Shown one piece after another: positions 33,061 to 54,731 of a stretch of 64,000 nucleotides of DNA. Numbering within the stretch: position 1 is the first letter of the stretch; each line of letters begins with the position of its first letter. The position numbers and the translations under genes are program-made. This DNA is from a virus: IMG/VR virus record IMGVR_UViG_3300022917_000010, positions 687 to 64,686 of that record. One strand, given 5' to 3'. The notes under the pieces are model-generated. The model searched no databases. It had not been told where the DNA came from and saw nothing but the letters and a program-made list of their open reading frames with translations.

Positions 33061-35973
33061 TCAGCGCACCAGCGCATCCAGTGATGTTTGCTCCGCTCCG
33101 GTCAAGTCTATGTCAAAGGCCGCCTGAAGTCTGACAGAAGATAGAGCCGCACTTCCGCTTGGGCTAAAAGAGCCGGTCGTCCTGTTATACTGCCCCTGAT
33201 CTGACCCTGACATAAGGGCATTAAGATTTGCGCCGAGGCCGATCTGACCGGTTAGCATATCTGGGGGGTTCAAGTTGGGGCTAGGAATCACAAGCCCGGT
33301 CTGAGCGGAGCCGGCGACGGCGTTGGACCATGCCTTCCAGTCAGTGCCGTCGAACGTACATGCCGCAGTGTTGAATGCAGTTGCAGATGCTGGGGTGGCC
33401 GTGGCGGTCTTTTGCTGTGTCGCATCTGAGAGCAGGCAATTGATCGCGCCCGGTGATCCTGATGTATGAGACAGCATCATTCTATTTGAAAACTGCCCGA
33501 TCGCGAACGGGTTGAACGCCGCGGTCCCGGGCTTTTGGTAAGCTGCGAACAAGGTGATCTTCGTCTTACGGCGGATATTATTTAGGTAGGATCGATCACC
33601 ACCGTAGTAGCCGTATGAGCTGCCTGTTCCGTTTACCCACGCCGGTTTGCCGCCAATACCAGTGGCGTTATAAGTCGTGTTCGCTGTGGTTGGCGTGTAG
33701 TCGCCGCCGCGGGGAAGTCGCGTCGTCCCCATGTCGAAAACCTTGGTGATCACGCTACCGCTCTTGGCAACGCAAAACTCTGGCATCGCGGCGAAAAGCA
33801 GGTTGTTTTTCTTCCCATTGGTTGTCAGCCACGCATAGAAGCTGTCCATCATTGCCTGATTGCAGGTCGTCGCGTCAGCACCTTCTGCCAAAGCTCGCGT
33901 GTAATGCGCATTCACTTCGGGATAGATGGAATTTGAACAATAGGTGCTGACGACTCGATTCTTCTGCTCGACGCCACCGTTGAGGTAGACCAGCTTGTAA
34001 TAGCCCACCGCGTTGAGCGCCATGCCCGTGTATGTCGCGGTGCCTCCTGAGAAGTCGCCAACCAATGTGGCTTGCGAGCCAACGGTGGGGCCGTAGTAAA
34101 GCCGCATCGTATCTGTCGGGGTGACGCCCGTATACCAGTTGATCGTTGCTGTAGAGGACGCGCAACTCGCACGGACGCCCACGGGGGCCGCGCCAGCTGC
34201 TGCTGTGGGGTCAATGATCTCCGTATAGTAATCAAGATTTTGTTGCCAAAGCCCCCCGCAAGATGAACCTGTGATAGTGCCAGAGCCAACAGTCGGGCTG
34301 GTCGTTATCGTATAATCACCAACGCCGTTTGGCGTACCATTTACTTGGTTGACGACGGTGACGTTGCTGCCGCTGGATATCCCGTTGCCGTAGATCAACG
34401 ATCCGATTTGGATCGTACCCGTTCCCAAGGACTGGACTGTCAGCGTCGTACCGCCGGTCGTGAACCCCGTGAATTGGAAATAGCCTTGTTGGCCGTTCAC
34501 GGTAGGATTAGCCGCGCATCCTCCATTGTTGGAATAGGTCGATAGATATGCTTGCGCCCAGAGCCCGTTGCTGATCGGCCAGCCCTTGGCCGCGTAGTAG
34601 TGAGCGATGCCGTCTTCAACATATCCGGTGACAGCTTGCAGGTACGAGGGGCCGGGATAAATGCCTGCGTAGGGTGGCGAGACATTCACAGCTGACGGCG
34701 TGTCGATCACACTCTGACTGCTATTAACTGATGCGCGGCCTACCCATTGATTTCCAATACGGGAAGTACCACTAAACGTACTGATCTTCGCCATTATCCA
34801 TGGCGAGCCACCGACAGAAATGGTGTCTGGTGACTGTAATGGCGCTGCTTGCCGACTGGCACCCGTACAGTCAATTGTCGTGCCAACTTGGGAACTGGCG
34901 GGAAGGCACCAATTCAGATTGGTGGTGCCGGCCACCCAGATATTGCCGTCAGTGCTGGTCCACGTCGACCGCGCAAAAGTATTGCCGTTATAGGGATAGC
35001 CGAACTCATACCCGACAGATTGCCAAACCCCAGCACTGACGCGCTGCACACGTTGAAAGCTCGACCAAGTGCCAAAATTAAGGCCAATATGGGTAGGCTG
35101 AGGACTTGTCCAAGTGACCAAATCCGCAGACTTTATCACTCCCATTTCATGCTGGATGCTGGATGCTTGCCCCTCTGCGTAGAGATAGAAAGGGTACGTA
35201 GCATCATCCGGATTGCAGAGAAGCTGAGCATCATAATAAAGAAAATATCCCGACTGTGTGACCGACATAGTTTGCGAAGCAACGAGTTGCGCCGCGCCGC
35301 CGATGACATAGTCTCCAGTCTGTCCTTGCGTTCCGGTCGATTGAGAGGCGATGACCGCCGTAGTAACGCCAGCGCCTGAGACACTGGCCTGCCCGGCATT
35401 GGTGATAAGACCGGTGTAAGCTGTGACCCTCAGTCTGTTGCCGGGAGCAATTCCAGAAGCGTCCGAGATCGACGCGGTGATTGTCGCCACCACTGGAGAG
35501 GCGGTGACGCCGGACCCGCTGGGATCAGCCGCCGCGTATATGAAATTGGCGCGGGACGGCAACACGCCTGGATCATTGCTGTAGCCGATCCGAAAATCAA
35601 AGCTGCCGTTCCAGACAGCCCCGACACCCGCTCCATGATCCGGGGCAAGTGGCCACGCATAGCGACCGCGCGACGCCGCGATGGCAGCGCCGGCAGCGCC
35701 GCATTCAGGGGCTGTCAGGTCATATGGTCTAAATCCCGAAAGCCCGTTTTGATGATACCAGTCATCGGTAGAGACGGCAGGATTTCCGAGACCGGGCGTG
35801 TAGTTGCCAGTGAAATTATCCCACGCCGATCCGGTCAGGCCGAAGAAGTTCTCCTGGCGAAGGTTCGGATTTGATACCGCCCCAGGCGCATAGGTCTGGA
35901 AAATACCGAACGCGGCATGCGCCAGCCCCGAGAGCAGCAGAAGCAAACAGAGCGCGGCTGATATTCTTTTCAT
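33061..35973 (-). CDS. Large signal-peptide-bearing adhesin/tailspike-like protein with a possible propeller-type domain and a LamG-like C-terminus
   Basis: MKRISAALCLLLLLSGLAHA|AFGIFQTYAP; FYLYAEG...MGVIKSADLVTW; ITLFAAY...NTAACTFDGTDWKAW. Confidence 0.6.
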   Translation of the reverse strand: MKRISAALCLLLLLSGLAHAAFGIFQTYAPGAVSNPNLRQENFFGLTGSAWDNFTGNYTPGLGNPAVSTDDWYHQNGLSGFRPYDLTAPECGAAGAAIAASRGRYAWPLAPDHGAGVGAVWNGSFDFRIGYSNDPGVLPSRANFIYAAADPSGSGVTASPVVATITASISDASGIAPGNRLRVTAYTGLITNAGQASVSGAGVTTAVIASQSTGTQGQTGDYVIGGAAQLVASQTMSVTQSGYFLYYDAQLLCNPDDATYPFYLYAEGQASSIQHEMGVIKSADLVTWTSPQPTHIGLNFGTWSSFQRVQRVSAGVWQSVGYEFGYPYNGNTFARSTWTSTDGNIWVAGTTNLNWCLPASSQVGTTIDCTGASRQAAPLQSPDTISVGGSPWIMAKISTFSGTSRIGNQWVGRASVNSSQSVIDTPSAVNVSPPYAGIYPGPSYLQAVTGYVEDGIAHYYAAKGWPISNGLWAQAYLSTYSNNGGCAANPTVNGQQGYFQFTGFTTGGTTLTVQSLGTGTIQIGSLIYGNGISSGSNVTVVNQVNGTPNGVGDYTITTSPTVGSGTITGSSCGGLWQQNLDYYTEIIDPTAAAGAAPVGVRASCASSTATINWYTGVTPTDTMRLYYGPTVGSQATLVGDFSGGTATYTGMALNAVGYYKLVYLNGGVEQKNRVVSTYCSNSIYPEVNAHYTRALAEGADATTCNQAMMDSFYAWLTTNGKKNNLLFAAMPEFCVAKSGSVITKVFDMGTTRLPRGGDYTPTTANTTYNATGIGGKPAWVNGTGSSYGYYGGDRSYLNNIRRKTKITLFAAYQKPGTAAFNPFAIGQFSNRMMLSHTSGSPGAINCLLSDATQQKTATATPASATAFNTAACTFDGTDWKAWSNAVAGSAQTGLVIPSPNLNPPDMLTGQIGLGANLNALMSGSDQGQYNRTTGSFSPSGSAALSSVRLQAAFDIDLTGAEQTSLDALVR

Positions 35974-38870
35974 GGCAGTTGCTGGTCCGTGCGGAGGGTC
36001 ATGGTCACCTGTGGGCTGTCGGAGGGAGTGTTAGCAGTGAAGATCGGCTGACCATTACCGCCGAACCATGCATCGGTAGGCGGCGCCGTGAGGCTGTCCA
36101 GCGACTGCGTTCCAGTGGCACCAGATGGCGTCAATGTGCGTGTGCCGCCAACAGGCGTCGGCAGTTTGGTGTTGATCATGTTGGTAGCGCCGAACGTAGT
36201 CGTAGTCAGATCGGTCTTGAGCACCTGCCAGTTCGCGAAGCGGGTGACCGTCCAACCCAGTGCGCCGCCGCCCGTAAAAGGCACGTTATTAGTGAAGGTG
36301 AAGGTATCCAACACGCCCCAGATTGTCGGGCTGTAGCCGGGCGTCGAGCCACCCGTCGCACTCCCTGTGTACGTGAAATTCTGACAGGAAAACATCGGCG
36401 CTTGAGCGGGGCATCCATTCAGCGCGAGGGCATTGTTGCCCGACCCGCCCGTGAAGCTGACAGTCAGCTTTGGAGCCGGGTGCGGGAAGATTTTCAGAGA
36501 GTTGGTGGTCCACGCCCCGGTCGGGAAACCGCCTGCCTCGCTGGTCTGTACGTAGGTGTTCACCGTGTCTTGGGTAACGTCCAGAACTTTGAAAAATCTT
36601 CCTGCCTGCGCAACGGTGCCGCCTCCGCCGCCGCCCTGCCACGCAACGTAGTGGCCGGGGACAAGGAGTCGGGTCTGTGTTTCGGCATACTGACAGCACC
36701 CGCTTGCGCTAAAGGCATTCGGAATTGTGATGATGCCGCCTGACATACTCCACGGATGCGACGCTTCGTCGACCTGATCAACCGGGGTGTTCCGGGTAAA
36801 ATCAGGCGTGGTGCAATTCGTGCATATGCTTTCATCCGAAACGCCGTAGGCTAGCGTGCCGACTTGGATGGTGGACGTCGCCGTGCTGTTGGTGATGTTG
36901 AGTTTTTTCGGACTTCCGAACCACGACTCCATGGTCGTGCCGTCAATATTGATCGTGTCAATCGAAGAACTCTGGACGTTGATTTTCTTGATCGAACCGC
37001 CGGTGATGTTCCATGTTCCGACTATTTTGTCGGTCTCAATGCTGCACGTCGAAGCATCAACGTTGATCCAGTTGTGCGTCACATTCTGCGTGGGGATCGC
37101 GCAGTGGACCCCGACCATCTTGGCGTCCCGCCATGTGATGTTGCGGCCGTTCGAGGTGGTCTGGCCGTTCGGGGTGACCAGCGACAAGTCCTTAAATTCG
37201 ACTGTGGTCTCCCACGTCGGATCAAGGACGTAGATCGTCGCCGGGCCACCTTGGTCTACCTCGAAAACATTCCGCCCCGTGTTGTATTGCGGCCATGTGT
37301 CCTTGTAGAGATTTGCGAACGGCGCATCGACGCAGACCTGATGCGTCGTGGAGTTTACAGAGACCACCGTTCGATATTCGAACCAGTGCGGATTGCTGGG
37401 ATAGCTGTATGGCGCCCCGTAATATGCCTGATTGGCCCAACCCCCGACCATGATCTTCGATCCAACCGGGAATAGGGCCGTCCGATCGCCGCCGCCCGTT
37501 CCCCCGCTGGTATAGGCCCCGTCGAACGTCATCTGGAATAGATCGACGTCGGTCCCGTTGATGACCTTGATCCAAAACAAGCCGTTTGAGCGCTGGGGAA
37601 GGAGCCCCTGCCCGACGATGTTGTTCAGAAACAGGGTGTCGCCGGTGGTGAGGCCCGTTGTCGAATTGAGGGAGACCCGAATATTGCCCTGAGACTGATA
37701 CTTCCCGCTCCCGCCTGACGTGGTGCGATTGCTAAGTTGATAGGTGCCGGCACCGCCCGGGGTGCCGGCGATCTGCGACACAATGTTCGTCGGCGCGCTG
37801 GTGCTAGCCCCGGTGCCATTCCATGAACCGCCGCCATAGACCACCTGCCCGACCGCAAGAACGCCGTCCTCGACCGAGGTTACGGTTAGAACGCCCGTAT
37901 TGGCCGCGATGCTGCCAGTATAGGACGCTGGCGCGGTGTAAGTGGCCTGCAAGGCGAAAGAGACCGACGCCGACATTGCATAGGTGCCAGTACCCCCAAC
38001 GCCCGTGGTCCCGGCGGTGCCGTATGGCTGCACCGTATTGAACGAACCGGCATTACTGGTTGCGTTGCCGATGATTGCTCCGGGGACGATCGTACCGGAC
38101 GTAATCGAGTTGACCGTCATCGTGGTCCCAGACGATGACGCTGAGAACCGCGCGGTGGAGGCGAAGCTCGGCTGAATGCCCGTCACCGTGACAGCGGGGG
38201 GTGTCTTTAGAGTAATGCAGCTATCGCCCGGATTAATGGTGTCCGTACGATTGCTATGGAAAGCGTCGTTGAACTGCCCGGAGCCGCCCAGCAGCATGCC
38301 ACCGGCAAGGCTCGAAATCCCCGAAGTCGCCGAACCATTCCCGGCCACCACAAGGTCGCCAATCCCCTTGAACGGGAACTGCTGAGCGCTGGTTATCCCA
38401 CAGAACCCAGGCAGATTGAGCTGCACCGGCGTCGTGCCTTGGTAGGCAGCCTTGAACGCCGTGTAGGCCGCCGTGGCGTCCGTTGCCCATACCAAATCAG
38501 CGGCCTGCGCCGTCTTTGGTGTCGAGATATCGCTGCCGACAACGATGTTCTGCGCGTTTGTGAAACTCGCAATCGTGCCCGTGTAGGTGCTGCCACCCGC
38601 GCCGACGCCGCCGATTGCGATTGTCTTACCGACGTCACCGCTGGAAAATATGCTGAGGCTGGAGAAAACGTTCCGGTTGCCGGTCCCGTTCGTGGTTATG
38701 GTGGGGCTGGCGTACTGACCGTCGCATACCGCGCCATAATCAGAGACGAGGTTTTTCTGCACCCGCGATGGAGCGGATGGCGCATAAGTCTGAAAGATGC
38801 CGAACGCCGCGTAGGCGCTCGACGTGATCAGCAGAGCGGCAAGGGCGGATAGGAACCTGCGCATGATCAT
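35970..38870 (-). CDS. Large signal-peptide-bearing tailspike/beta-helix-like protein
   Basis: MRRFLSALAALLITSSAYA|AFGIFQTYAP; KNLVSDYGAVCDG...TDATAAYTAF tailspike-type start; FCCH-like segment GDTLFLNNIVG...GAYTSGG. Confidence 0.65.
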   Translation of the reverse strand: MIMRRFLSALAALLITSSAYAAFGIFQTYAPSAPSRVQKNLVSDYGAVCDGQYASPTITTNGTGNRNVFSSLSIFSSGDVGKTIAIGGVGAGGSTYTGTIASFTNAQNIVVGSDISTPKTAQAADLVWATDATAAYTAFKAAYQGTTPVQLNLPGFCGITSAQQFPFKGIGDLVVAGNGSATSGISSLAGGMLLGGSGQFNDAFHSNRTDTINPGDSCITLKTPPAVTVTGIQPSFASTARFSASSSGTTMTVNSITSGTIVPGAIIGNATSNAGSFNTVQPYGTAGTTGVGGTGTYAMSASVSFALQATYTAPASYTGSIAANTGVLTVTSVEDGVLAVGQVVYGGGSWNGTGASTSAPTNIVSQIAGTPGGAGTYQLSNRTTSGGSGKYQSQGNIRVSLNSTTGLTTGDTLFLNNIVGQGLLPQRSNGLFWIKVINGTDVDLFQMTFDGAYTSGGTGGGDRTALFPVGSKIMVGGWANQAYYGAPYSYPSNPHWFEYRTVVSVNSTTHQVCVDAPFANLYKDTWPQYNTGRNVFEVDQGGPATIYVLDPTWETTVEFKDLSLVTPNGQTTSNGRNITWRDAKMVGVHCAIPTQNVTHNWINVDASTCSIETDKIVGTWNITGGSIKKINVQSSSIDTINIDGTTMESWFGSPKKLNITNSTATSTIQVGTLAYGVSDESICTNCTTPDFTRNTPVDQVDEASHPWSMSGGIITIPNAFSASGCCQYAETQTRLLVPGHYVAWQGGGGGGTVAQAGRFFKVLDVTQDTVNTYVQTSEAGGFPTGAWTTNSLKIFPHPAPKLTVSFTGGSGNNALALNGCPAQAPMFSCQNFTYTGSATGGSTPGYSPTIWGVLDTFTFTNNVPFTGGGALGWTVTRFANWQVLKTDLTTTTFGATNMINTKLPTPVGGTRTLTPSGATGTQSLDSLTAPPTDAWFGGNGQPIFTANTPSDSPQVTMTLRTDQQLP

Positions 38871-39781
38871 CCGCCGATGATCCGGCCGCCACCGCCGCCG
38901 CTAAGAGATGGAGGAGTGATGGTGATGTTGCTCGCGCGACCATAGTCAATAGAATTGGTTGCCGTGATGCCGTTGGTGACCGCCGTCACGTCGCGGAATG
39001 AACAATAATTGCATGTAGCCCCGCCTCCGCTCAGGGTGAGCGTCACGCTATTGTTTGGTGCAGTTGTTGCAAAACCTGTCCAAGCGTTGACGCCCCCACC
39101 TGAAAATACAAGCGACCCCGTGACCGTCCAGTTGGTGGCATTTGAAAAAATGAGATAGTTTGGGGCCTGAATATTGAAGGTGCCAATCGTGGGGCTACTA
39201 CCTTGCATACTAGTAGCGCCGCCTACAGCCGTTCCTTGCAGAGTCACAACATTGTATGTGAAGGTGCCAAGGTTCATTGTTACTGTTTGATTTTGTGCAA
39301 CGCCTGCAATCGAACGAACCGTTGATGTATTCGCGTTAAAGGTGAGGTTGGTGGCTCCATTCTGATTCCAGCCGCTGCCGCCGCCAGTATTGCCGACCGT
39401 CCAAGTGCTGGCGCCAAGATTTAGAGTTCGCGTCCCGGCTCCGGTGTTCGCTAAGTTGCCAATGTCAACTGACGCGGTATCGCCAGAATTACCAAGCGTG
39501 CCGGTAAACAGATTCATTGTGAGCGTGCCAACCGTCCAGTTGACGTTGCGCGTGATTGTGCCGCCGCCAGAGGATGCATCGAACGTGGCCGTGTCCGCTC
39601 CGGAGTTGGGCCAGCCGCCTGCCGCCGCGCAAGTGCTGGCGCTGCCACCCGTAGCATTTGACCATTTCGTGGTGTCGTTGATATTGCCGGTGCCGCCGAC
39701 CCAGAAACATGCAGCAGCATTGGCGACATTCGGCGCCCAGCACGCGAGCGCGAGAAGGAAAAGGCCGAAGAGTTTGTTCAT
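38867..39781 (-). CDS. Signal-peptide-bearing beta-solenoid-like protein
   Basis: MNKLFGLFLLALACWAPNVANA|AACFWVGGTGNINDTTKWS; Thr/Asn/Gly repeats; ends GGGGGRIIGG. Confidence 0.65.
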   Translation of the reverse strand: MNKLFGLFLLALACWAPNVANAAACFWVGGTGNINDTTKWSNATGGSASTCAAAGGWPNSGADTATFDASSGGGTITRNVNWTVGTLTMNLFTGTLGNSGDTASVDIGNLANTGAGTRTLNLGASTWTVGNTGGGSGWNQNGATNLTFNANTSTVRSIAGVAQNQTVTMNLGTFTYNVVTLQGTAVGGATSMQGSSPTIGTFNIQAPNYLIFSNATNWTVTGSLVFSGGGVNAWTGFATTAPNNSVTLTLSGGGATCNYCSFRDVTAVTNGITATNSIDYGRASNITITPPSLSGGGGGRIIGG

Positions 39782-39791
39782 GGCGATGCCC

Positions 39792-40925
39792 TCACGGTGC
39801 CTGGACGTATTTGAGAACGCCAGCGAGCGGCGTTGCAGCGGATGTAATTAGGCATAGACCGACGTTTGTTCCTGCCGTCTGCGCGACGGCGACCTTGCCG
39901 CCGGCCTGCAGAAAGATTCCGCTGTTGGCCGCGAAGTTCGGCCCGTTGGCTGCGGTAGTGCCGCCGATGACACCCGCCGTGCCGGTGCCGCAGGTGCCGC
40001 CCGTGCCCTCGACGATGCCGATGTTGTCCGCCGCCGCCGATGTCAGGAACAGCGAACAAATGTAGGTCTTGTTGCTTGCGGATGCCGCGACAATTTGAGT
40101 CGTGGTTGCCGTCGTAATGCTGATCGGCAACGATGTCTGGAGGTTGGCTTCGCAGGGGTCGATGATGGCATTCCGCGTGCCGTCACCAGATCGAGATGGG
40201 AGCGGAGTTGCCGCCGCGACGCCGACAAGATTGCCGCCAGAGTTGAACCCGAAGTAATTGGCATTGGCTGGAACAGCCGCCGCCGTAGCGCCGAGGCCCC
40301 AGTTCGCCGCGGTGCCCGGATTGCTCAGGAACGGCGTCATGGATGCGATACCCTGCACCGTGACGACTTCCGTCGATGCCGTGCCAGCCGTGCCCACAGC
40401 CGCGCCTGCGACCGTCGAGCCGGTACCGGAGTTCTTGGCAATGGCCACCGGCGACGAGCTGGCGAGAGCCGCCTGCCCGTTCGCGTTGGTATTGCTCACA
40501 ACAACCGTTGGATAGCCATTCGCGCTGCACTGCACCGCGGAACCTTGGCCGTTCGTCAGCGTGATCGGCGTCGAATTATAGATGCACCCCGTAAGCAGCG
40601 AATTGGACGCGGCGGTGCCGGCAGCGACCGTTCCCCTCATTGTGAGGAGATCGACCCAGGAACCCGCAGCGAAGGCCCCGGACAGGAACGACCCGCTGGC
40701 AAACGCGCTGGCCGCCCCCTGAATGAACAGAGGCGATCCGCTAACGCCGATCTGCGTGCCAGTGGCATTGACCAATGCGTGCCCCGGCGCCTGCACCCCC
40801 GACCCGACATCCACCGACCTCATCGTGACCCCGCTACCCGGCGTCAAGACAATTGCGTTGTCGGCCGCGACCGCGGCAGAGGCCCACAAGGAGCCGATCA
40901 GAAGAATTGAGAGAAGCTTTTTCAT
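39792..40925 (-). CDS. Signal-peptide-bearing fibre-like protein
   Basis: MKKLLSILLIGSLWASAAVA|ADN; Ala/Gly/Thr-rich shaft; C-terminal beta-sandwich with 4 Cys. Confidence 0.65.
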   Translation of the reverse strand: MKKLLSILLIGSLWASAAVAADNAIVLTPGSGVTMRSVDVGSGVQAPGHALVNATGTQIGVSGSPLFIQGAASAFASGSFLSGAFAAGSWVDLLTMRGTVAAGTAASNSLLTGCIYNSTPITLTNGQGSAVQCSANGYPTVVVSNTNANGQAALASSSPVAIAKNSGTGSTVAGAAVGTAGTASTEVVTVQGIASMTPFLSNPGTAANWGLGATAAAVPANANYFGFNSGGNLVGVAAATPLPSRSGDGTRNAIIDPCEANLQTSLPISITTATTTQIVAASASNKTYICSLFLTSAAADNIGIVEGTGGTCGTGTAGVIGGTTAANGPNFAANSGIFLQAGGKVAVAQTAGTNVGLCLITSAATPLAGVLKYVQAP

Positions 40926-40935: not shown

Positions 40936-41109
40936 CTAGAGAGCCCCGATATACTGGCTGTTGCAGGCTTGCGAAAAATCGAGAGTGTTGGAGCATCCCC
41001 CACCGCCGCCAGAACCAGACCTGCCGGGGCCGGGGAACGGGAAGAACTGTGCGAGCGCCGCGCCCGCCCACGCCGCCAATGCGAGCGCCAAAACCAACCG
41101 CTTTATCAT
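40936..41109 (-). CDS. Secreted mini-peptide
   Basis: MIKRLVLALALAAWAGAALA|QFFPFPGPGRSGSGGGGGCSNTLDFSQACNSQYIGAL; 4-nt overlap with the upstream gene. Confidence 0.65.
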   Translation of the reverse strand: MIKRLVLALALAAWAGAALAQFFPFPGPGRSGSGGGGGCSNTLDFSQACNSQYIGAL

Positions 41110-41960
41110 CGCGTAACCCTCCAATTGAGGGTGACAGCGCCTGGCGTGATCGAGGATGAGGTCGGGTTGCAAACCTTGAAGTTGACGTTGTTGGCGGTCG
41201 GATATGGATATATCGCCAGCCCGCCCGTCGTCACCGGCGCGTATCCCGTCACCGCGGTAATGTCAGCGTTGGGTGTGAAACTGATCGTGTCGGTCGTGGC
41301 CGTGTTCGTGGCGGTAGCCGTGACCGCCGTGGCGCACGCCCCCGACGTGATCGCGCTGGTCCCAAGGACCGCCGTCCCTGCAGCGATGGTCTGCGTCGAC
41401 CCGCCAGCCGCAGAAACAGCCGCAGCGAGTTGAGCTGCCACACCAGTCCCGAGGCCGGTAATGCCCGCAATCGGCAGTCCCGTGACGTTGGTCAAGGTGC
41501 CACTGGAAGGCGTCCCGAGGGCCCCGTTAAAGAGAACCGGCGCGCCCGCGGACCCGATATTGACCGCCAGCGCCGTCGCGACGCCAGTGCCCAAGCCCGT
41601 GATGCTGCCGATCGCCGGCGTGCAGGTCGCCGCGGAGATCGCCGTCGTGAGCCCCTTCGCGTTCTGCGTGGTGGTGATGCACGACGTTGCGCTGCCGAAG
41701 GTGCCGACGTTCGCGTTCACCGTGGCGAGGGTAAGAGCGCCCAGCCCCGTGGCTGCGGCGTCCCCCGACATCAGGCCGTAGACATAAGCGGCGTTCTGCG
41801 CCGCGGTCCCCTTCCGATCAGCGCCGCCCTGCACCACGTAGAACAGTTCGGTGCCACCAAGCGCGCTGGCCGCAGTCAGCGCCGTGACGGTGCTATCAGC
41901 CGCTTTGGCCGGCGACAGGAGAGCCAAAAGGCCCGCCGCGATCAGTAAATGACGTCGCAT
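41106..41960 (-). CDS. Signal-peptide-bearing fibre-like protein
   Basis: MRRHLLIAAGLLALLSPAKA|ADSTVTALTAASALGGTELFYVVQGG; ITGLGTGVA repeated twice. Confidence 0.7.
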   Translation of the reverse strand: MRRHLLIAAGLLALLSPAKAADSTVTALTAASALGGTELFYVVQGGADRKGTAAQNAAYVYGLMSGDAAATGLGALTLATVNANVGTFGSATSCITTTQNAKGLTTAISAATCTPAIGSITGLGTGVATALAVNIGSAGAPVLFNGALGTPSSGTLTNVTGLPIAGITGLGTGVAAQLAAAVSAAGGSTQTIAAGTAVLGTSAITSGACATAVTATATNTATTDTISFTPNADITAVTGYAPVTTGGLAIYPYPTANNVNFKVCNPTSSSITPGAVTLNWRVTR

Positions 41961-42187
41961 CAGCAGCCTCCCGCGCGGCAAACCTTACTCGCGCCATCGG
42001 TTTGAAGAAGAAAGGAAGTGTCATCGACGAGGAGGATCTTGCCAGTCGGGACTGGAACCGAGCCGCCCGGCGTCGTCACGCCCGGGCCATTGATACCGCC
42101 CGGGCAGAACCCGCGGCCGCATTTGTTGAATTGGGCGAACGCCGCCCCTGAAAGAACCAGCAAAATTAGCACAATGAAAGTTTTCAC
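41960..42187 (-). CDS. Secreted mini-protein
   Basis: GTG start MKTFIVLILLVLSGAAFA|QFNKCGRGFCPGG...KVCRAGGC. Confidence 0.6.
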   Translation of the reverse strand: MKTFIVLILLVLSGAAFAQFNKCGRGFCPGGINGPGVTTPGGSVPVPTGKILLVDDTSFLLQTDGASKVCRAGGC

Positions 42188-42225: not shown

Positions 42226-42804
42226 ATGAAACTTTGCCAAATCGCCGGATGCGGCGGGAAGCACCAGGCGCACGGCCTGTGCGACAAGCATTATCGCCGC
42301 TTCCGCCACCATGGCGATACAAACCTCAGAGCGCCGGCCATCGACCAGTTCTGGTCTAAAGTAGATCAATCTGGCGGCCCCGATTCCTGCTGGCCTTGGC
42401 AGCAGTCCACAGATAGCGGCGGATATGGCGCGGCATGGGATGGCGAAAAGAGGTGGAAATCTCACCGACTGGCTTGGACGCTGACTAATGGAGTCATCCC
42501 CGATGGGGTTGATGTGCTCCACCATTGCGACAACCCGCCATGCTGCAACCCATCCCATCTTTGGCTTGGGAAAGATTTGGACAATATCGTCGATTGCATC
42601 AGCAAGGGCAGATATAACCGACAGCGAGGCGATGATCGGCCAAATAGTAAAATTACCGAGGCACAAGCCCGAGAGATATTGTTTATTTGGGGACAAGATG
42701 GCCGCCCGACGCTGCGCGAGATCGGAGACCGCTACGGCATAGCGATTTCTACCGTACACGGGCTGGTCACGCGGCAAAGGTGGAAGCACCTCGATAATCA
42801 TTGA
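42226..42804 (+). CDS. HNH homing endonuclease inserted in inverted orientation
   Basis: FWSKVD...CWPW...SHRLAW...VLHHCDNPPCCNPSHLWLG...NIVDCISKGR. Confidence 0.92.
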   Translation: MKLCQIAGCGGKHQAHGLCDKHYRRFRHHGDTNLRAPAIDQFWSKVDQSGGPDSCWPWQQSTDSGGYGAAWDGEKRWKSHRLAWTLTNGVIPDGVDVLHHCDNPPCCNPSHLWLGKDLDNIVDCISKGRYNRQRGDDRPNSKITEAQAREILFIWGQDGRPTLREIGDRYGIAISTVHGLVTRQRWKHLDNH

Positions 42805-43154
42805 CGCTCACACGAATACCGATCGCCAGTGCCGGCGGATATAATCGACGCCGTGCTTATCGTGGGCCCGTTGACATCGCTGAAAAAAGAGCCGCCGGCC
42901 GCCGTGCCCGACCCAGGTTGAAGGGTCCAAGATCCCGCCCCGCAATTCGTGCCCGCGATCGTCGCCGCCACTCCGCTGAATGAAACGCACATCAGATTCG
43001 CGGAATTGTTCATCAGCATGAGCTTGCGGACGTTCGAACTCGTAAATATCGTCTGCGCCGTCCCGCCCGTCGTGATCGTCCCCGAGCAATCCGTGGCAAA
43101 TGCCGCGCCGCACCACAAAACCGTAGCCAGAAACGCCGCAATAAATCGCATCAT
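42798..43154 (-). CDS. Signal-peptide-bearing small beta-rich protein
   Basis: MMRFIAAFLATVLWCGAAFA|TDCSGTITTGGTAQ; 4 Cys in the mature part. Confidence 0.7.
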   Translation of the reverse strand: MMRFIAAFLATVLWCGAAFATDCSGTITTGGTAQTIFTSSNVRKLMLMNNSANLMCVSFSGVAATIAGTNCGAGSWTLQPGSGTAAGGSFFSDVNGPTISTASIISAGTGDRYSCERQ

Positions 43155-48132: not shown

Positions 48133-48204
48133 TTGAGTTTTCCTCGCAAGAGTTAAGCGGATGAATATTCACGATTTAGCATGATGCGAGCACCGCCGAA
48201 AGAT

Positions 48205-48375: not shown

Positions 48376-48423
48376 GGGACGCCTCCGATAACGAGGGCGA
48401 TGCGCCGCAACAACGCCGCAATG

Positions 48424-48609
48424 CTATTTGGGTTCCATTTCCACCTTGCTGATCGCGATATGATAAACTACGTCGCGCTCAAACTGGCCCAACTCCTTCG
48501 GCAACTCTCCCATCAGATGGCCGGCGTTTGGCGGCTGAAACTTCAGCAGGACATAATGCGACCCGTTTTTCGATACGGAGGCGGAGCACTGCGCATCGAA
48601 CTCTATCAT
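48424..48609 (-). CDS. Hypothetical protein
   Basis: 61 aa from MIEFDAQC, coupled to the upstream gene. Confidence 0.45.
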   Translation of the reverse strand: MIEFDAQCSASVSKNGSHYVLLKFQPPNAGHLMGELPKELGQFERDVVYHIAISKVEMEPK

Positions 48610-49049
48610 GCTGCGGACCGGCGATAAAAGAAGGCGCCGAGCCCGATTATCAAGCCGATCACCGCAGAGATGCCGTTCCACAGCAGCGACGCGCCCTCCG
48701 CCCGGCTCACCACCTGGCTGATCCGCGCATCATTGGTCTGGATCTTGTCCTCCATCGCCTTGATCACGGCGAGCGCTTCCGAGCGCGACATCAGCGTGGC
48801 CTGCTGATCTTTCAGCGTCGATCGGAATTCGTTGACCGAATCGAACCGCTTCTCCGCCGCGGTCTCAGCCTTGGCCACAGCCTCCTTTGCCGCCGCCAGC
48901 GCCGCGGCGACCGCCTTCTCCTGCGCGTCAAACCTTTGATTGTTCGCCACGGACCGCTCGTTGAGGATCGTCATTACCTCTTGAGCCGTGACCTCCGCCC
49001 GCGCCGGCATCGCTACCAGCAGCAGCCCCGCGACAAGCCCCCAACGCAT
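48606..49049 (-). CDS. Signal peptide + coiled coil + C-terminal TM protein of the lysis cassette
   Basis: MRWGLVAGLLLVAMPARA|EVT...; C-terminal LLWNGISAVIGLIIGLGAFFYRR. Confidence 0.65.
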   Translation of the reverse strand: MRWGLVAGLLLVAMPARAEVTAQEVMTILNERSVANNQRFDAQEKAVAAALAAAKEAVAKAETAAEKRFDSVNEFRSTLKDQQATLMSRSEALAVIKAMEDKIQTNDARISQVVSRAEGASLLWNGISAVIGLIIGLGAFFYRRSAA

Positions 49050-49934: not shown

Positions 49935-49988
49935 TTCAGTATGCCAATTGCCGCCTATGTTGCGTGGTCAATTATGACCACCCAGCCG

Positions 49989-50198: not shown

Positions 50199-50200
50199 GG

Positions 50201-50629
50201 CTATTTCGCCTCCTGTATCGCAACACCATTTTCGGCCGCCTTGCCCTTCACGATGCCGATCAAGTCGACGACTTCGTTAAATACAACGGCCGCGTTCACC
50301 TGATCGTTCCTCTTTACGAACCCGCGCAGCCGCGCCAGGTAAGGCGGTATCTGCCGCGTGTAGACCTGCACCATGCGGATTTGCTCGACACAGCCCGCGT
50401 TCAGCGTCCCAGCCTCGCAGGCGTCGCGCCATGCGTTAAGGCCGGCGAAGACCAGCACCGCGCCGGCCTCGACCTTCCGCAACCGTTCGTTGGTGACGGG
50501 ATTGGCGACCGAAGCCGTGCCGAGTTCGACCAGCGTGGGGAGCTTGCCGAAGAATTGGCAACCGCCCTGCGGCAGCGCGAGAACCGCGAGAAGCGAAAGT
50601 GTGACGGCGATATGGGCGATGCGGCGCAT
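50201..50629 (-). CDS. Lipoprotein (o-spanin candidate)
   Basis: MRRIAHIAVTLSLLAVLALPQGG|C lipobox-like. Confidence 0.6.
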   Translation of the reverse strand: MRRIAHIAVTLSLLAVLALPQGGCQFFGKLPTLVELGTASVANPVTNERLRKVEAGAVLVFAGLNAWRDACEAGTLNAGCVEQIRMVQVYTRQIPPYLARLRGFVKRNDQVNAAVVFNEVVDLIGIVKGKAAENGVAIQEAK

Positions 50630-50637
50630 GGCGGCTC

Positions 50638-51114
50638 CTATGCTGCGGATTTGACTTGAGGGCTCACGGTTGCGGCCGCCAATTCCGGATCGGCCACCTT
50701 GATATCACTCACCACCTCCGGGAGCGACGCCGCGGCGTCCAGTATCGCCACCTTGGCCTCCTTGCTCGTCGGGATGGAGTTATCCTGCGCGACCGCCTTG
50801 GTCGCCTCGATCAGCGCTTTCTGCGCATCGACGGATTCCACACTCTTTTCGCCGGTAGCGATCTGCTGCACCTGAGCGATCTGATTGGACGTCGATGCGC
50901 TGCGCGTAGCCTGGATGCCGCCATAGACGACGCCAATGGCTGCCACGAGCTGAATGAGGGTGTTGATCGTGCTGCCCATGCTTTCGATGACCGTCTTGAC
51001 GGCGGCCATGTCGACCCCCTTGGCCTGTAGCCCGAAAATGGTAACCGCCACGCCGACGGCGGTCCCGACATGCCGCGTGGCCGCGTTAACCTCAGACTGA
51101 GTTGGCAATCTCAT
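50638..51114 (-). CDS. Holin-like membrane protein
   Basis: Two N-terminal hydrophobic segments; directly after the endolysin. Confidence 0.55.
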   Translation of the reverse strand: MRLPTQSEVNAATRHVGTAVGVAVTIFGLQAKGVDMAAVKTVIESMGSTINTLIQLVAAIGVVYGGIQATRSASTSNQIAQVQQIATGEKSVESVDAQKALIEATKAVAQDNSIPTSKEAKVAILDAAASLPEVVSDIKVADPELAAATVSPQVKSAA

Positions 51115-51129
51115 GATGCAAAATCCCTT

Positions 51130-51915: not shown

Positions 51916-51928
51916 GATGCGCTCCTGT

Positions 51929-53191
51929 TTAGAATTCGATAGCTATGCAAGTAGCGTTGCTAATTATCAGCGTGTTCGCACTCGTTAGTCGCGACAGATC
52001 AAACCAATACTGCGTTGCCAGCGAGAGCCCGGTAACAACAGCCCTTAGAGATATGGGGACAGAACCGCTGGCGACAGCAAAGGCCGTCGCTAACGACGTA
52101 CTCGCCTGAGTGCCAGTAACCGCCACGTTCGCTGCCGGTGCCGCGCCGCTCCCGTATCGCAGATCGAATGTGCCGGTATTCGGCACCGTATTGTTGGATG
52201 CGACAAATTGAATGGTGATATCCATTCGGCCATTGAGGACCGGCGTCAAAGTACATCCGTTTTGACCAAACCCCGACATCACCCCCGTAGCCGATGTGGT
52301 GTTAGCCGGGGAGGCCGGGCTTACCTGCACCACCGCGTTAGTGAATGCCCGCGCTACGGTGCATGTACCCGTCACAGTGATCGTGCAGGTTCCAGTAACC
52401 GTGATGCCATTGCCAGCGGCGACCTGCGCGCTGGTTACCGTTCCGGTTCCAGGCAGCGTCCACGACGGAATACCAGAAGCATCTTCCTGCAGAACCCGCG
52501 TGCCAGAGTTATTGCCAGCAAGGCAGACCCAATTCGTGCCGTTGTAATAGACCAGATCACCGGCGCGCGTCGGTGGGCAGTTATGCGCTGCGTTCTGGAG
52601 CCCCTGCTGCGTACCAGCACCGGAGCCGCCCCGCGCGACCGATAGCGTCCCGGTCCAACCCAGCGTAATCGATGCCGCGTTCACCAGCGCGACCGTCGGG
52701 CTGCCGCCGAGCGTCGCAGTCACGTTCGTATCGTCGGTTTTCGTCAGCGCCGCACCAGTGCCCCATGCCGGGCATGCTCCCACGCCGCCCGAGCGCAGCA
52801 CCTGCCCAGTCGCGACGTCCGCAATTCGGGAAAGCGTCGTGGTGCCGGTCGCGCACAGGATATCGCCTATGGCATAGACGTTCAGGCCAGTCCCGCCTCC
52901 AACGATACCCAAGACCGCATAGCCGGGATCCGCGCCAGCGCCGGAACTCACCCAAGGCAGCCCCGCCGTACCAGGCCCGACGATCGCCCAGCCGGACGCG
53001 CCGCGCTCAATGATGGCTCCGCGGGTCGACCCCAGCGCGCGGTCAAGGATCGCAGTAACGGTCTCCGCGCGCGCCGGCCGTGTCGCCGCTGACGAGTTGC
53101 CCATAACCTGACCAGCAGCAGGCTGTGATTGCGCGTGCGCGCCCCCGGCCAGCGCCAGCCAAGCGACTGCCGCGAATACCGCCCTTCTCAT
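51929..53191 (-). CDS. Signal-peptide-bearing tail fibre
   Basis: MRRAVFAAVAWLALAGGAHA|QSQPAAGQV; fibre repeats GGTG, GDIL, GQVL, GTVTS; 8 Cys. Confidence 0.7.
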   Translation of the reverse strand: MRRAVFAAVAWLALAGGAHAQSQPAAGQVMGNSSAATRPARAETVTAILDRALGSTRGAIIERGASGWAIVGPGTAGLPWVSSGAGADPGYAVLGIVGGGTGLNVYAIGDILCATGTTTLSRIADVATGQVLRSGGVGACPAWGTGAALTKTDDTNVTATLGGSPTVALVNAASITLGWTGTLSVARGGSGAGTQQGLQNAAHNCPPTRAGDLVYYNGTNWVCLAGNNSGTRVLQEDASGIPSWTLPGTGTVTSAQVAAGNGITVTGTCTITVTGTCTVARAFTNAVVQVSPASPANTTSATGVMSGFGQNGCTLTPVLNGRMDITIQFVASNNTVPNTGTFDLRYGSGAAPAANVAVTGTQASTSLATAFAVASGSVPISLRAVVTGLSLATQYWFDLSRLTSANTLIISNATCIAIEF

Positions 53192-53640
53192 GATTCCACC
53201 TCGTAACCATCGCCGGCCAGTTTCGGCTTGAACGTCTTCGCGTCGTAAGCATCGACCATCGGGTAGGACGCCAACCCATCAATCAGTTCAGCCGCCGTCC
53301 GATTGACCGAAATACCGTTTGGATTGGCGTTTATCGCCTTCACGGTGAGCGGCCTATTGGTACGGGATACCGCGGCCGCTGTCTGAATGACCACCGCGCC
53401 GCCTGTCGTATCGACCTCGAGAAGATAATCCGTCGGCAACACCGTATATGGCGACATGGCAAAGTTGACCGCCGTCGGCACGACCGCTGCCGGCGTGACC
53501 GAGGCCGTAACCACGTTGGCCTGCACCGCCTCGATCGCACGCTGGACGTCGATCGCGGCCACGCCGGGCGACGGGCTATAGGAAACATTCCTCGCCGCAG
53601 CGATCGGAGAAACCCGCAGATCGGTTTGAATGACTGACAT
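53188..53640 (-). CDS. Tail fibre adaptor/short structural protein without signal peptide
   Basis: Start MSVIQTD at 53640; ATDVQAAI-like AIDVQRAIE; YTVLPTDYLLEVDTTGGAVVI. Confidence 0.6.
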   Translation of the reverse strand: MSVIQTDLRVSPIAAARNVSYSPSPGVAAIDVQRAIEAVQANVVTASVTPAAVVPTAVNFAMSPYTVLPTDYLLEVDTTGGAVVIQTAAAVSRTNRPLTVKAINANPNGISVNRTAAELIDGLASYPMVDAYDAKTFKPKLAGDGYEVES

Positions 53641-54731
53641 CACAAAATCCGCAGGTAAGGGATAAGCCCGATCGTCGGCATCACAAAAGGTGTTGCCGCC
53701 CCGCTCGTATTGTTCGACGTGACCGCGATTGCGTTTGATCCACTGAAAGACCATGAGTTCGCTAATACACCGCCAGTCGGACCCGACGTGGCGCCAGCAG
53801 TGTTCACACTCGGGTTGATAATTCCATTGCCATACATGAAGCCCGTATTTGGGCCTGAGACCGTGATGCTGTTGGCCCCGTTTGATGTGATCCCAGTCGG
53901 GAGTTGCGCAAGCGTCAGCGCCCTCCCTTCGACACCATTGGCGCAGACAGCGCCCACCAATGTCATGGCTGTTCCGCAGCCAGTCGCCGCATTCGTTAGG
54001 CGGAAAGCGGAATTCCCATTGAGAGTATCCAGCGCTGCCACCACGCGCCCCCGCATGTCGATGATGGCGAACTGCCCGCCGGGGCACCCGCCACTCGCAG
54101 GGAACCCCTGCTGCGCCCAATAGGCTGCGTAAGTCGTCGTCGAAATGCACTGCCCCGACGGCGCCACAAAATTGCTGCTGGGAGGCAGCGTCGACGTTGA
54201 CCACAGAATACCGCCCAGCGGCGTCCCGGTATTGCCATAACCGGCCTCGAGCAGCCACGCGCTATTCGACGCGCTGAATGCCACCCGATAGGGTGAACCA
54301 GAGATCAGCGCCCCGGCCGGAATTGTCGTTCCGCTAAGCCAGAGCGGATACGCAGTTCCACCATCCACCTGCAACGTCGGGGCCGCCCCGCTGGTCACAT
54401 GCGCGATAAAGGACAGCATCTGACCATTGACCGGCGTGGTGTTGACGCCTTCCAGCGTCGCCAGAGCATAAGCGGTAGACGTTCCGGTCGTGGTATTCGC
54501 CCCGCTGATATCCGACCGCCACGCGGCCAGCACCGCCATCATGGCGCGCGCTGAATCATTCACCGCCGACGGCGCCATGCCCTCCGCCCAATTGATCGAC
54601 GGATCGGCAGTCGCGTTCGTTGAGGCCGTAGTCGACCACTGCCAGATCGCCGCTTTCAGGCTGCCTGCGCCCAGCGCCACCGATATCGACAGAACAGCGA
54701 GGACGAGAAATTCAATTGTCCGACGTCGCAT
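53640..54731 (-). CDS. Tail fibre with tail-collar domain, preceded by a signal peptide
   Basis: MRRRTIEFLVLAVLSISVALGAGSLKA|AIWQWSTTASTNATADPSINWAEG; collar-like PLGGILW...PSGQCISTTTYAAYW...FAIIDMRGRV. Confidence 0.75.
   Translation of the reverse strand: MRRRTIEFLVLAVLSISVALGAGSLKAAIWQWSTTASTNATADPSINWAEGMAPSAVNDSARAMMAVLAAWRSDISGANTTTGTSTAYALATLEGVNTTPVNGQMLSFIAHVTSGAAPTLQVDGGTAYPLWLSGTTIPAGALISGSPYRVAFSASNSAWLLEAGYGNTGTPLGGILWSTSTLPPSSNFVAPSGQCISTTTYAAYWAQQGFPASGGCPGGQFAIIDMRGRVVAALDTLNGNSAFRLTNAATGCGTAMTLVGAVCANGVEGRALTLAQLPTGITSNGANSITVSGPNTGFMYGNGIINPSVNTAGATSGPTGGVLANSWSFSGSNAIAVTSNNTSGAATPFVMPTIGLIPYLRIL

What the first reader, a model, noticed from the sequence alone, without database searches (positions are those of the whole stretch)
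33061..54731. Every signal-peptide protein has an even number of cysteines in its mature chain
Hand counts after the predicted cleavage site: 4 (42), 12 (33061), 12 (35970), 4 (38867), 6 (39792), 2 (40936), 4 (41106), 4 (41960), 4 (42798), 8 (51929) and 4 (53640). Eleven of eleven even would occur about 1 time in 2048 if parity were random. The neighbouring structural proteins without signal peptides (461-880, 53188-53640) have no Cys. In 33061, Cys pairs appear to bracket modules (GGC...SSC, ASC...TYC). This is independent support for oxidative DsbA-type folding in the periplasm.
Basis: partly seen in the sequence, partly recalled or inferred. Interest (0 to 1): 0.8.

Follow-up and report, generated by a model that had tools for sequence, protein, structure and literature searches.

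The report
Paired cysteines mark exported phage fibres
In this short-tailed soil phage, every late protein with a secretion signal has an even number of cysteines once the signal is removed, and relatives without the signal do not, which indicates that its tail fibre and sugar-cutting proteins are exported and locked by disulfide bonds outside the cytoplasm where the rest of the particle is built.

Summary
All 11 listed proteins have Sec-type signal peptides (10 of 11 end in A-x-A). Their mature Cys counts are 4, 12, 12, 4, 6, 2, 4, 4, 4, 8 and 4. Other Cys-containing proteins of the window are 32 even to 29 odd.

The rule repeats elsewhere:
- In four related phage genomes, signal-peptide proteins are 35 even to 4 odd, against 133 to 201 for the rest (p = 1e-9).
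- In four large homologue families, signal-bearing members are about 92 to 100% even. Signal-less members have random parity.
- In three of those families the signal-less members have other residues at the query's Cys positions.
- Cys are gained and lost as specific pairs, for example 486/572: both in 33 sequences, neither in 29, one alone in none.

Even-Cys bias is a published signature (Dutton 2008). Cys-Cys distances could not be measured because no model coordinates were available, and DsbA dependence is inferred.

The proteins include the phage's only tail-fibre orthologue and a beta-propeller glycosidase-like enzyme. The host is probably Bradyrhizobium. I found no paper describing this for tailed phages, but this scan noted the same pattern earlier on other DNA, in at least 22 genomes.

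The parts
42..419 (-). 125-aa signal-peptide protein directly after the capsid and decoration genes. It has 4 mature Cys (positions 45, 69, 83, 119).
   Evidence: Homologues in G001 and G002 also have 4.
33061..35973 (-). 970-aa exported enzyme-like protein. The signal peptide ends AHA|AFGIFQ. There is 1 Cys in the signal peptide and 12 in the mature chain. The fold is a beta-propeller plus beta-sandwich modules.
   Evidence: AF2 model with pLDDT 89 and pTM 0.88. Foldseek hits trans-sialidase, GH43 and GH32 enzymes and the Pan3 tailspike. Pair covariation: 486/572, 704/734, 846/872 and the block 253/356/369.
35970..38870 (-). 966-aa exported beta-helix-type protein with the same mature N-terminal decapeptide as 33061. 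It has 12 mature Cys, including C683-x2-C686 and C725-C726.
   Evidence: In its family, signal-bearing representatives are 48 even to 2 odd, and signal-less ones are 17 to 19.
38867..39781 (-). 304-aa signal-peptide protein with 1 Cys in the signal peptide and 4 in the mature chain (25, 51, 257, 260).
   Evidence: The G002 homologue has 2, one pair fewer.
39792..40925 (-). 377-aa signal-peptide protein with 6 mature Cys.
   Evidence: Partial homologues in G001 and G003 have 4. The nearest atlas clusters are viral proteins without a name.
40936..41109 (-). 57-aa signal-peptide mini-protein with 2 mature Cys.
41106..41960 (-). 284-aa signal-peptide protein with 4 mature Cys.
41960..42187 (-). 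75-aa signal-peptide mini-protein with 4 mature Cys, arranged as C-x4-C at each end.
   Evidence: Homologues in G001 and G002 also have 4.
42798..43154 (-). 118-aa signal-peptide protein with 1 Cys in the signal peptide and 4 in the mature chain.
   Evidence: Homologues in G001, G002 and G004 all have 4.
51929..53191 (-). 420-aa mosaic fibre-like signal-peptide protein with 8 mature Cys. The inferred pairs are 113-140, 205-223, 269-277 and 313-415.
53640..54731 (-). 363-aa tail fibre. A signal peptide is followed by the W-x-W-S fibre N-terminus and a collar-like domain. It has 4 invariant Cys (195, 216, 252, 263).
   Evidence: phrog_30879 hit. All 120 top homologues carry the signal peptide and 4 or 6 Cys. 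The model hits PDB tail fibres. It sits in the same gene slot as the signal-less fibre of Rhizobium phage RHph_Y1_10. It is the only fibre homologue in the genome.
50201..50629 (-). 142-aa lipoprotein-like protein in the lysis cassette (signal plus LPQGGC). It has 3 Cys, read as 1 acylated plus 2.
   Evidence: Counterparts in G001-G004 (LGGC or LAGC lipobox) also have 1 plus 2.
48606..49049 (-). 147-aa protein with an N-terminal signal peptide, a coiled-coil and a C-terminal hydrophobic segment. It has 0 Cys.
54733..61477 (-). Contrast set of four consecutive signal-less virion or ejection proteins: lysozyme-like (240 aa), 1095 aa, 497 aa, and an S74-domain protein (368 aa). Together they span 2,200 residues with no Cys.
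   Evidence: P(0 Cys) is 4e-6 for the 1095-aa protein alone, at the genome's 1.13% Cys frequency.
53188..53640 (-). 150-aa signal-less protein between the two fibre genes, with 0 Cys.
461..880 (-). 139-aa signal-less protein next to the capsid gene, with 0 Cys.

Best explanation
The eleven proteins are genuine Sec substrates. They are made with a cleavable signal peptide and exported to the periplasm of a Bradyrhizobium-type host. There every cysteine of the mature chain is paired in an intramolecular disulfide, presumably by the host DsbA/DsbB system. The even counts are the footprint of selection against unpaired thiols in an oxidising compartment.

Shown here:
- The counts themselves.
- The signal-peptide features.
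- The contrast with signal-less proteins and with signal-less homologues.
- The pairwise gain and loss of Cys.
- The identity of two members: the phage's only tail-fibre orthologue, and a beta-propeller glycosidase-like enzyme.

Inferred:
- Actual export and signal-peptide cleavage.
- Actual disulfide bonds and their dependence on DsbA.
- That these proteins meet the cytoplasm-built particle only when the envelope is opened at lysis.
For: (1) In the window, 11 of 11 are even after cleavage, against a background of 32 even to 29 odd. Three totals are odd until the signal-peptide Cys is removed.

(2) The pattern replicates in four related complete phage genomes (G001-G004). For strict signal-peptide proteins in the five genomes (this window plus those four) the raw count is 35 even to 4 odd, against 133 to 201 for all others (Fisher p = 1e-9). 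The four odd cases are one lipoprotein (1 plus 2), one cleavage-site miscall (8 by homology), one twin-arginine-type signal (1 Cys) and one doubtful membrane anchor.

(3) Fibre family. All 120 best homologues carry the signal peptide and have 4 or 6 mature Cys. The extra Cys appear only as pairs, at 8 or more different column pairs. By contrast, 67 signal-less homologues in Bradyrhizobium-type genomes have 0-4 Cys (counts 15, 29, 14, 4 and 3 for 0-4 in the 65 complete frames). The cultured phage ppBeUSDA76-2 fibre has 1 Cys.

(4) 51929 family. Signal-bearing members are about 61 even to 5 odd. Signal-less mosaic relatives have Y/F/A/T/S at the Cys positions. Pair tallies, as both / neither / one alone: 113-140 is 22/30/3, 205-223 is 10/31/0, 269-277 is 14/8/3. 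Alternative pairings give many singles.

(5) 33061 family. Pair tallies: 486/572 is 33/29/0, 704/734 is 42/20/0, 846/872 is 30/31/1, and the block 253/356/369 is 51/11/0. Signal-less members (a different N-terminus) have F, Y, F, S, A, I/L, G, F/A, G/L at most of these positions, and 1-7 Cys with mixed parity.

(6) 35970 family. Among representatives no more than 50% identical to each other, signal-bearing ones are 48 even to 2 odd, and clearly cytoplasmic ones are 17 to 19.

(7) Likely hosts encode DsbA-family and DsbB proteins.

(8) An even-Cys bias in exported proteins is an accepted indicator of disulfide formation (PMC2823432, citing Dutton et al. 2008).
Against: - No coordinates were available, so no Cys-Cys distance was measured.
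- Signal peptides were called with my own heuristic, not a trained predictor.
- Exceptions exist among more distant signal-bearing homologues: a subclade with 5 Cys (P0301-P0305), P0276 (7), P0322 (5), P0140, P0173, P0178, P0209, P0212, P0427 and P0443. Some of these may be truncated or mis-started metagenomic calls.
- Signal-less beta-helix homologues keep some of the same core Cys.
- Virion disulfides can form without export, as in Agrobacterium phage Milano (PMC10811340).
- The host is inferred from prophage homologues only.
- Many homologues within a family are related, so the counts are not all independent events.
Confidence: 0.8

Rival explanations
1. The proteins are exported and disulfide-bonded but are not virion parts. 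They act as free periplasmic or released proteins, for example polysaccharide depolymerases that strip the envelope, or receptor-blocking and superinfection-exclusion factors. This keeps the cysteine explanation and differs only in what the proteins are for.
For: 33061 models confidently as a monomeric multi-domain beta-propeller enzyme (pTM 0.88). Eight of the genes lie at the very end of the late strand, after the terminase gene, interleaved with an HNH endonuclease gene, and the set varies as cassettes between relatives. No virion proteomics exists.
Against: 53640 sits in the exact tail-fibre slot of related cultured phages and is the only fibre homologue in the genome. Two unrelated 970-aa proteins share a mature N-terminal decapeptide, as docking adaptors do. 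The same enzyme families also occur without a signal, carrying typical spike or fibre N-termini.
Confidence: 0.25
2. The hydrophobic N-termini are not used for export (or only anchor the proteins to the membrane). The proteins fold in the cytoplasm, and the paired Cys oxidise in air after lysis, as in phages with virion disulfide networks.
For: Disulfide networks in cytoplasm-built virions exist (phage Milano, PMC10811340). No experiment here shows export.
Against: - The h-regions are about 10-15 residues long with A-x-A sites, which is signal-peptide geometry rather than a transmembrane anchor.
- The signal is conserved in hundreds of homologues, with the -3/-1 rule kept while the sequence drifts.
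- Parity is even only after removing the signal-peptide Cys.
- Signal-less virion proteins of the same phage have no Cys at all across 2,200 residues.
- Signal-less homologues have random parity.
- There is no internal start codon that could give a signal-less fibre.
Confidence: 0.08
3. The cysteines coordinate metal ions (zinc-knuckle-like C-x2-C pairs) or have other roles, and the parity is a by-product.
For: C-x2-C motifs occur in 38867 (257/260) and 35970 (683/686, followed by 725/726). The core Cys of the 35970 family are partly kept in signal-less homologues.
Against: Most inferred partners are 8-100 residues apart and bracket beta modules. Pairs are lost one at a time, not in fours. The clearly zinc-type Cys-rich proteins of this phage (HNH endonucleases, and 43390-44001 with 12 Cys) have no signal peptide.
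Confidence: 0.05
4. The even counts are chance, or an artefact of choosing cleavage sites and start codons.
For: The counts were made by hand. Cleavage sites are predictions. 0 and 2 are common counts in any small protein.
Against: The mature count does not depend on start-codon choice. The result is p = 8e-4 in the window, and it was replicated with an automatic rule in four other genomes and four homologue families containing hundreds of sequences.
Confidence: 0.02

Closest known systems
Even-cysteine bias of exported proteomes as a marker of DsbA/DsbB-type disulfide formation (Dutton, Boyd, Berkmen, Beckwith 2008 PNAS; Daniels et al., JBC, PMC2823432)
   Same: The logic is the same. Exported proteins of organisms that make periplasmic disulfides favour even Cys numbers, and cytoplasmic proteins do not.
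   Different: That signature was described for whole bacterial proteomes as a statistical tendency (about 60% even). Here it holds for 11 of 11 proteins of one tailed phage and for 92-100% of signal-bearing members of four phage protein families, and it concerns fibre and spike-type proteins.
Signal-less tail fibres of related cultured phages: Bradyrhizobium phage ppBeUSDA76-2 tail fibre (OP596614) and the fibre of Rhizobium phage RHph_Y1_10 (MN988487)
   Same: They share the N-terminal W-x-W-S...N...D..I.W.EG motif. The ppBeUSDA76-2 fibre also shares the shaft and the collar-like motif (43% identity over residues 24-235). The RHph_Y1_10 fibre matches residues 27-75 at 57% identity and lies in the same gene slot, after the S74 protein, the injection proteins and the lysozyme.
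   Different: These fibres start directly at the motif with no signal peptide. They have 1 Cys, and the window fibre's four invariant Cys positions are not Cys (ppBeUSDA76-2 has Ala at position 195).
Bdellovibrio bacteriovorus MAT (mosaic adhesive trimer) fibres (Caulton et al. 2024, PMC10769870)
   Same: They are phage-tail-fibre-like mosaic proteins made with a signal peptide, some with S74 chaperone domains and with disulfides in the tip domains.
   Different: They are cellular proteins of a predator, displayed on its own surface. They are not encoded by a phage and are not thought to join a virion.
Ff filamentous phage coat proteins (pIII, pVIII), from my own knowledge
   Same: They are virion proteins made with signal peptides. 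pIII has disulfides formed in the periplasm.
   Different: Inoviruses assemble at the membrane by extrusion. This is a P22-portal, HK97-type capsid podovirus, whose particle is expected to be built in the cytoplasm.
Disulfide network of Agrobacterium phage Milano (PMC10811340)
   Same: It is a phage of an alphaproteobacterium whose virion is stabilised by many disulfide bonds.
   Different: The searched passages of that paper make no mention of export, periplasm or cytoplasm (0 occurrences). I did not examine the Milano proteins for signal peptides.
Lambda-type spanins Rz/Rz1, from my own knowledge
   Same: They are phage-encoded periplasmic proteins (a signal-anchor protein plus a lipoprotein) with functional disulfides. 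The window's lipoprotein-like 50201-50629 (1 plus 2 Cys) lies in the lysis cassette.
   Different: Spanins are lysis proteins, not fibres. I did not test whether 50201-50629 belongs to that family.

Membership tests
Sec / signal peptidase I substrates | Basic n-region, uncharged hydrophobic h-region of about 7-15 residues, and small residues at -3 and -1 (A-x-A) | tested here: met
   All 11 pass my von Heijne-type scorer, and 10 of 11 have A-x-A. The feature is conserved in 120 of 120 fibre homologues while the sequence varies. No trained predictor such as SignalP was available.
Sec / signal peptidase I substrates | Actual translocation and cleavage | not testable with these tools
   This needs PhoA or Bla fusions, N-terminal sequencing or mass spectrometry.
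Disulfide-bonded exported proteins (DsbA/DsbB substrates) | Even number of Cys in the mature chain, in contrast to cytoplasmic proteins | tested here: met
   11 of 11 in the window. Across the five genomes, 35 to 4 against 133 to 201. The four homologue families agree.
Disulfide-bonded exported proteins (DsbA/DsbB substrates) | Cys conserved, gained and lost as specific pairs | tested here: met
   For example, 486/572 is both in 33, neither in 29 and one alone in 0; 205/223 is 10/31/0.
Disulfide-bonded exported proteins (DsbA/DsbB substrates) | Partner Cys within bonding distance in a structure | not testable with these tools
   Two AF2 models were made, but no coordinates are returned. Indirect support only: 486 and 572 flank an insertable beta module, whose two ends must lie close together.
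Disulfide-bonded exported proteins (DsbA/DsbB substrates) | Host has a periplasmic oxidation system | tested here: met
   Three Bradyrhizobium genomes that hold fibre homologues have 6-9 DSBA-family hits and 1-2 DsbB hits. The phages encode none. The host assignment itself is inferred.
Phage tail fibre with collar-type domain (for 53640-54731) | Fibre N-terminal attachment motif, fibre gene slot and fibre-like fold | tested here: met
   phrog_30879 covers residues 28-74. Some homologues carry PF07484. Synteny matches RHph_Y1_10. Foldseek hits cyanophage A-1(L), Pa193 and T4 gp12 fibres at modest scores.
Phage tail fibre with collar-type domain (for 53640-54731) | Presence on the virion | not testable with these tools
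   There is no cultured member and no proteomics.
Beta-propeller glycoside hydrolases (sialidase / GH43 / GH32-like) (for 33061-35973) | Beta-propeller catalytic domain plus beta-sandwich modules | tested here: inconclusive
   Foldseek gives probability 1.0 to trans-sialidases and to GH43 and GH32 enzymes, but the global TM-score is only about 0.2 for this multi-domain model. There is no Pfam hit. Catalytic residues were not examined.
Bacterial lipoprotein / outer spanin (for 50201-50629) | Lipobox [LVI][ASTVI][GAS]C after the h-region | tested here: inconclusive
   The window protein has LPQGGC, which is atypical at -3 and -2. Counterparts in relatives have LGGC or LAGC. There is no family hit.

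The most novel reading that the evidence does not exclude
A widespread clade of Bradyrhizobium-type podoviruses sends all its host-recognition proteins through the Sec pathway: its single tail fibre, its depolymerase-like spikes and several small accessory proteins. These proteins have evolved disulfide-stapled versions of folds that other phages make in the cytoplasm. The infectious particle would then be completed only when periplasm and cytoplasm mix at lysis, a two-compartment assembly route not described for tailed phages.
Probability: 0.45. Interest if true: 0.85.

Novelty: new variant of a known kind. Interest (0 to 1): 0.65.

Why it matters
Tailed phage particles are taken to be finished in the reducing cytoplasm. 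This finding gives sequence-level evidence that one lineage's fibres and spike-type enzymes are adapted to an oxidising compartment. Within the same protein families, versions with a signal peptide have paired cysteines, and versions without one have few or unpaired cysteines. That makes the claim of exported tail fibres hard to dismiss as misannotated N-termini.

The finding also gives concrete disulfide maps to test. It has practical consequences too:
- Such fibres would misfold in ordinary cytoplasmic expression.
- Host dsb or sec functions could act as phage host factors.
- Cys parity combined with a signal peptide is a cheap filter for finding more cases in viromes.

Tried and rejected
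- **Cys-Cys distances.** The two AlphaFold2 jobs gave only confidence and secondary structure, and no coordinate file appeared in /data.
- **Family searches.** Pfam and PHROGs gave nothing for 9 of 10 signal-peptide proteins. tblastn of 33061 against cultured phages gave no match. The protein atlas gave only unnamed viral clusters for 39792.
- **Literature.** Searches for signal-peptide tail fibres and for DsbA with tail fibres found no paper describing this for tailed phages.
- **Phage-encoded DsbA.** Looked for and absent in all five genomes.
- **Internal start codon.** An internal start could have produced a signal-less fibre isoform, but there is none near the cleavage site.
- **Scorer errors.** My automatic signal-peptide scorer miscalled cleavage in a few cases (for example ...SASCAFG|QGQ, read as 9 Cys instead of 8). 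It also missed sites ending in G. I corrected these by homology and say so. Low-scoring hits at internal start codons were ignored as false positives.
- **Unused tools.** Complex prediction and the sequencing-run tools were not used, because nothing in this report rests on a binding or expression claim.

Full report
**What the window is**

The window covers bases 687-64686 of a 65,235-bp IMG/VR viral contig that CheckV rates as complete. It is a short-tailed phage. It has a PF13252 capsid protein (50% identical to that of Rhizobium phage RHph_Y1_10), a P22-type portal, a large terminase subunit, an S74-domain structural protein, injection-type proteins, and an endolysin with PG_binding_1 and CHAP domains. 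Late genes are on the minus strand.

**The observation**

A von Heijne-type scorer that I wrote and ran on every called gene picks out these proteins. Ten of the eleven have an A-x-A cleavage site after an uncharged hydrophobic stretch of 10-15 residues.

Three of them (33061, 38867, 42798) have one extra Cys inside the signal peptide. The count is therefore even only for the mature chain, which serves as a small internal control for cleavage.

The other Cys-containing proteins of the window are 32 even to 29 odd, so 11 of 11 has p of about 8e-4.

- 48606-49049 has 0 Cys.
- 50201-50629 is lipoprotein-like and has one lipobox Cys plus 2.
- 11535-11705 has 2 Cys.

**Replication in relatives**

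The terminase protein retrieved four complete related phage genomes, with 72-98% terminase identity. I fetched them whole and ran the same gene caller and scorer.

Strict signal-peptide proteins in the five genomes are 35 even to 4 odd. All other Cys-containing proteins are 133 even to 201 odd (Fisher p = 1e-9). The four odd cases each have an explanation:
- a lipoprotein (1 plus 2);
- a cleavage site miscalled by my scorer, which gives 8 Cys when aligned with its homologues;
- a protein with a twin-arginine-type signal and a single Cys (Tat substrates fold before export);
- a doubtful membrane anchor.

Between homologues the counts differ in steps of two: 8/8/4/8, 4/2, 12/20/18 and 6/4/4.

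**Four homologue families as natural experiments**

(a) Fibre 53640
- The 120 best homologues all carry a signal peptide in front of the W-x-W-S fibre motif. They have 4 mature Cys (107 sequences) or 6 (13 sequences).
- The four core Cys are invariant.
- Extra Cys appear only as pairs, at eight or more different column pairs.
- In bacterial genomes the family is found almost only in Bradyrhizobium and Xanthobacteraceae. There, 67 homologues start directly at the motif without a signal. They have 0-4 Cys (counts 15, 29, 14, 4 and 3 for 0-4 among the 65 complete frames), mostly odd when any are present.
- The annotated tail fibre of the cultured Bradyrhizobium phage ppBeUSDA76-2 has no signal, has one Cys, and has Ala where the window fibre has Cys195.

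(b) 51929
- Signal-bearing homologues are about 61 even to 5 odd, after correcting obvious cleavage miscalls.
- Signal-less mosaic relatives with classical fibre N-termini have 0-7 Cys of mixed parity. They carry Y/F, A/L/T, T/S/A and similar residues at the query's Cys positions.
- Co-occurrence tallies (both / neither / one alone) identify the pairs 113-140 (22/30/3), 205-223 (10/31/0), 269-277 (14/8/3) and 313-415. Alternative pairings produce many singles.

(c) 33061
- Close signal-bearing homologues have 12, 10, 8 or 14 core Cys.
- 704/734 (42/20/0) and 846/872 (30/31/1) co-vary, and 253/356/369 form one block (51/11/0).
- Members without a signal carry a different N-terminus. They have F, Y, F, S, A, I/L, G, F/A and G/L at most of these positions, and 1-7 Cys in total.

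(d) 35970
- Among representatives no more than 50% identical to each other, signal-bearing ones are 48 even to 2 odd. Clearly cytoplasmic ones are 17 to 19.
- In this family the signal-less relatives are also Cys-rich and keep some of the four core Cys (590, 609, 683, 686).

**What the proteins are**

- The fibre model (pLDDT 75) matches solved phage tail fibres. The gene lies in the same slot as the signal-less fibre of RHph_Y1_10, after the S74 protein, two injection proteins and a lysozyme-like protein.
- It is the only fibre homologue in the genome, and no internal start codon could yield a signal-less isoform.
- 33061 folds with high confidence as a monomer (pLDDT 89, pTM 0.88). It resembles beta-propeller glycosidases with beta-sandwich modules (trans-sialidase, GH43, GH32) and a cyanopodophage tailspike.
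- 35970 belongs to a large beta-helix family that also has typical signal-less spike N-termini.
- So these are fibre and spike or depolymerase-type proteins, not unrelated cargo genes.

**The opposite class**

Four consecutive signal-less virion or ejection proteins (54733-61477, 2,200 residues) contain no Cys at all. For the 1095-aa protein alone the probability is 4e-6 at the genome's Cys frequency. Proteins that must work outside the cytoplasm therefore either have paired Cys and a signal peptide, or have no Cys.

**Mechanism**

The best reading runs as follows: Sec export, signal peptidase I cleavage, then oxidative folding in the periplasm with each Cys in an intramolecular disulfide. The phages encode no DsbA. 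Bradyrhizobium genomes that carry fibre homologues encode DsbA-family and DsbB proteins.

Export, cleavage, the bonds themselves and DsbA dependence are all inferred. That the proteins join the particle only at lysis is a further inference. The main open alternative is that some of them act as free exported enzymes.

**Comparison with what is known**

The closest biological parallels are:
- the signal-peptide-bearing, phage-fibre-like MAT fibres of Bdellovibrio (PMC10769870);
- the exported coat proteins of filamentous phages (my own knowledge);
- the disulfide network of phage Milano, although the searched passages of that paper do not discuss export (PMC10811340).

Two literature searches found no description of signal-peptide-bearing tail fibres in tailed phages. 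This scan has noted the same pattern on other DNA in at least 22 genomes. It is therefore a recurrent phenomenon, not a peculiarity of this contig.

**Limits**

- No Cys-Cys distances were measured.
- The signal-peptide calls are heuristic.
- Homologues within a family are related, so not all counts are independent.
- A few signal-bearing relatives have odd counts.
- The host is inferred.

Noticed in passing
window 54733-61477 (minus strand): Four consecutive signal-less virion or ejection proteins (240, 1095, 497 and 368 aa) contain no cysteine in 2,200 residues. This looks like cysteine exclusion in proteins that cross the periplasm at infection.
   Followed up: partly
L001:113-571 (minus strand; contig bases about 209-667, just left of the window): A twelfth signal-peptide protein (152 aa) follows gene 42-419. 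It has one Cys in the signal peptide and none in the mature chain. Its homologues in G001, G002 and G004 have 2.
   Followed up: partly
G003 48616-48879 and G004 35309-35647 (loci L021, L024): These small proteins have twin-arginine-type signals (RRELLFG, SRRNFLRG) and a single Cys. They are the only clear odd-Cys proteins with a signal, as expected if they fold before export.
   Followed up: no
window 33061-38870 and proteins P0241-P0327: After the cleavage site, the 33061 family carries one of several short alternative N-terminal peptides (AFGIFQTYAP, QFAIFQTALP, AYFQAQTYLP, ARFPRGTP, AWFKHGNA) ahead of a conserved NLRQEN core. Signal-less members carry MSLRFSASANGTRN...GGG instead. These look like exchangeable docking adaptors.
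   Followed up: partly
window 42226-42804 (+) and 46401-46919 (-): There are two HNH_3 endonuclease genes. One lies on the opposite strand, inside the run of signal-peptide genes. The other also has an AP2 domain. They are probably homing endonucleases.
   Followed up: partly
window 48205-51915 (minus strand): This is a lysis cassette: an endolysin (PG_binding_1 plus CHAP, no signal), a membrane protein (50638-51114), a lipoprotein-like protein (50201-50629), several small membrane proteins, and a protein with a signal peptide, a coiled-coil and a C-terminal hydrophobic segment (48606-49049). These could be spanin-type components.
   Followed up: no
proteins P0301-P0305 (homologues of 33061): A more distant signal-bearing subclade has 5 Cys: it keeps Cys604 but has Val at position 679. 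It is an exception to the parity rule that I cannot explain.
   Followed up: no
window 18089-18172 (minus strand): A tRNA-Ser (anticodon CGA) gene, found by ARAGORN.
   Followed up: no
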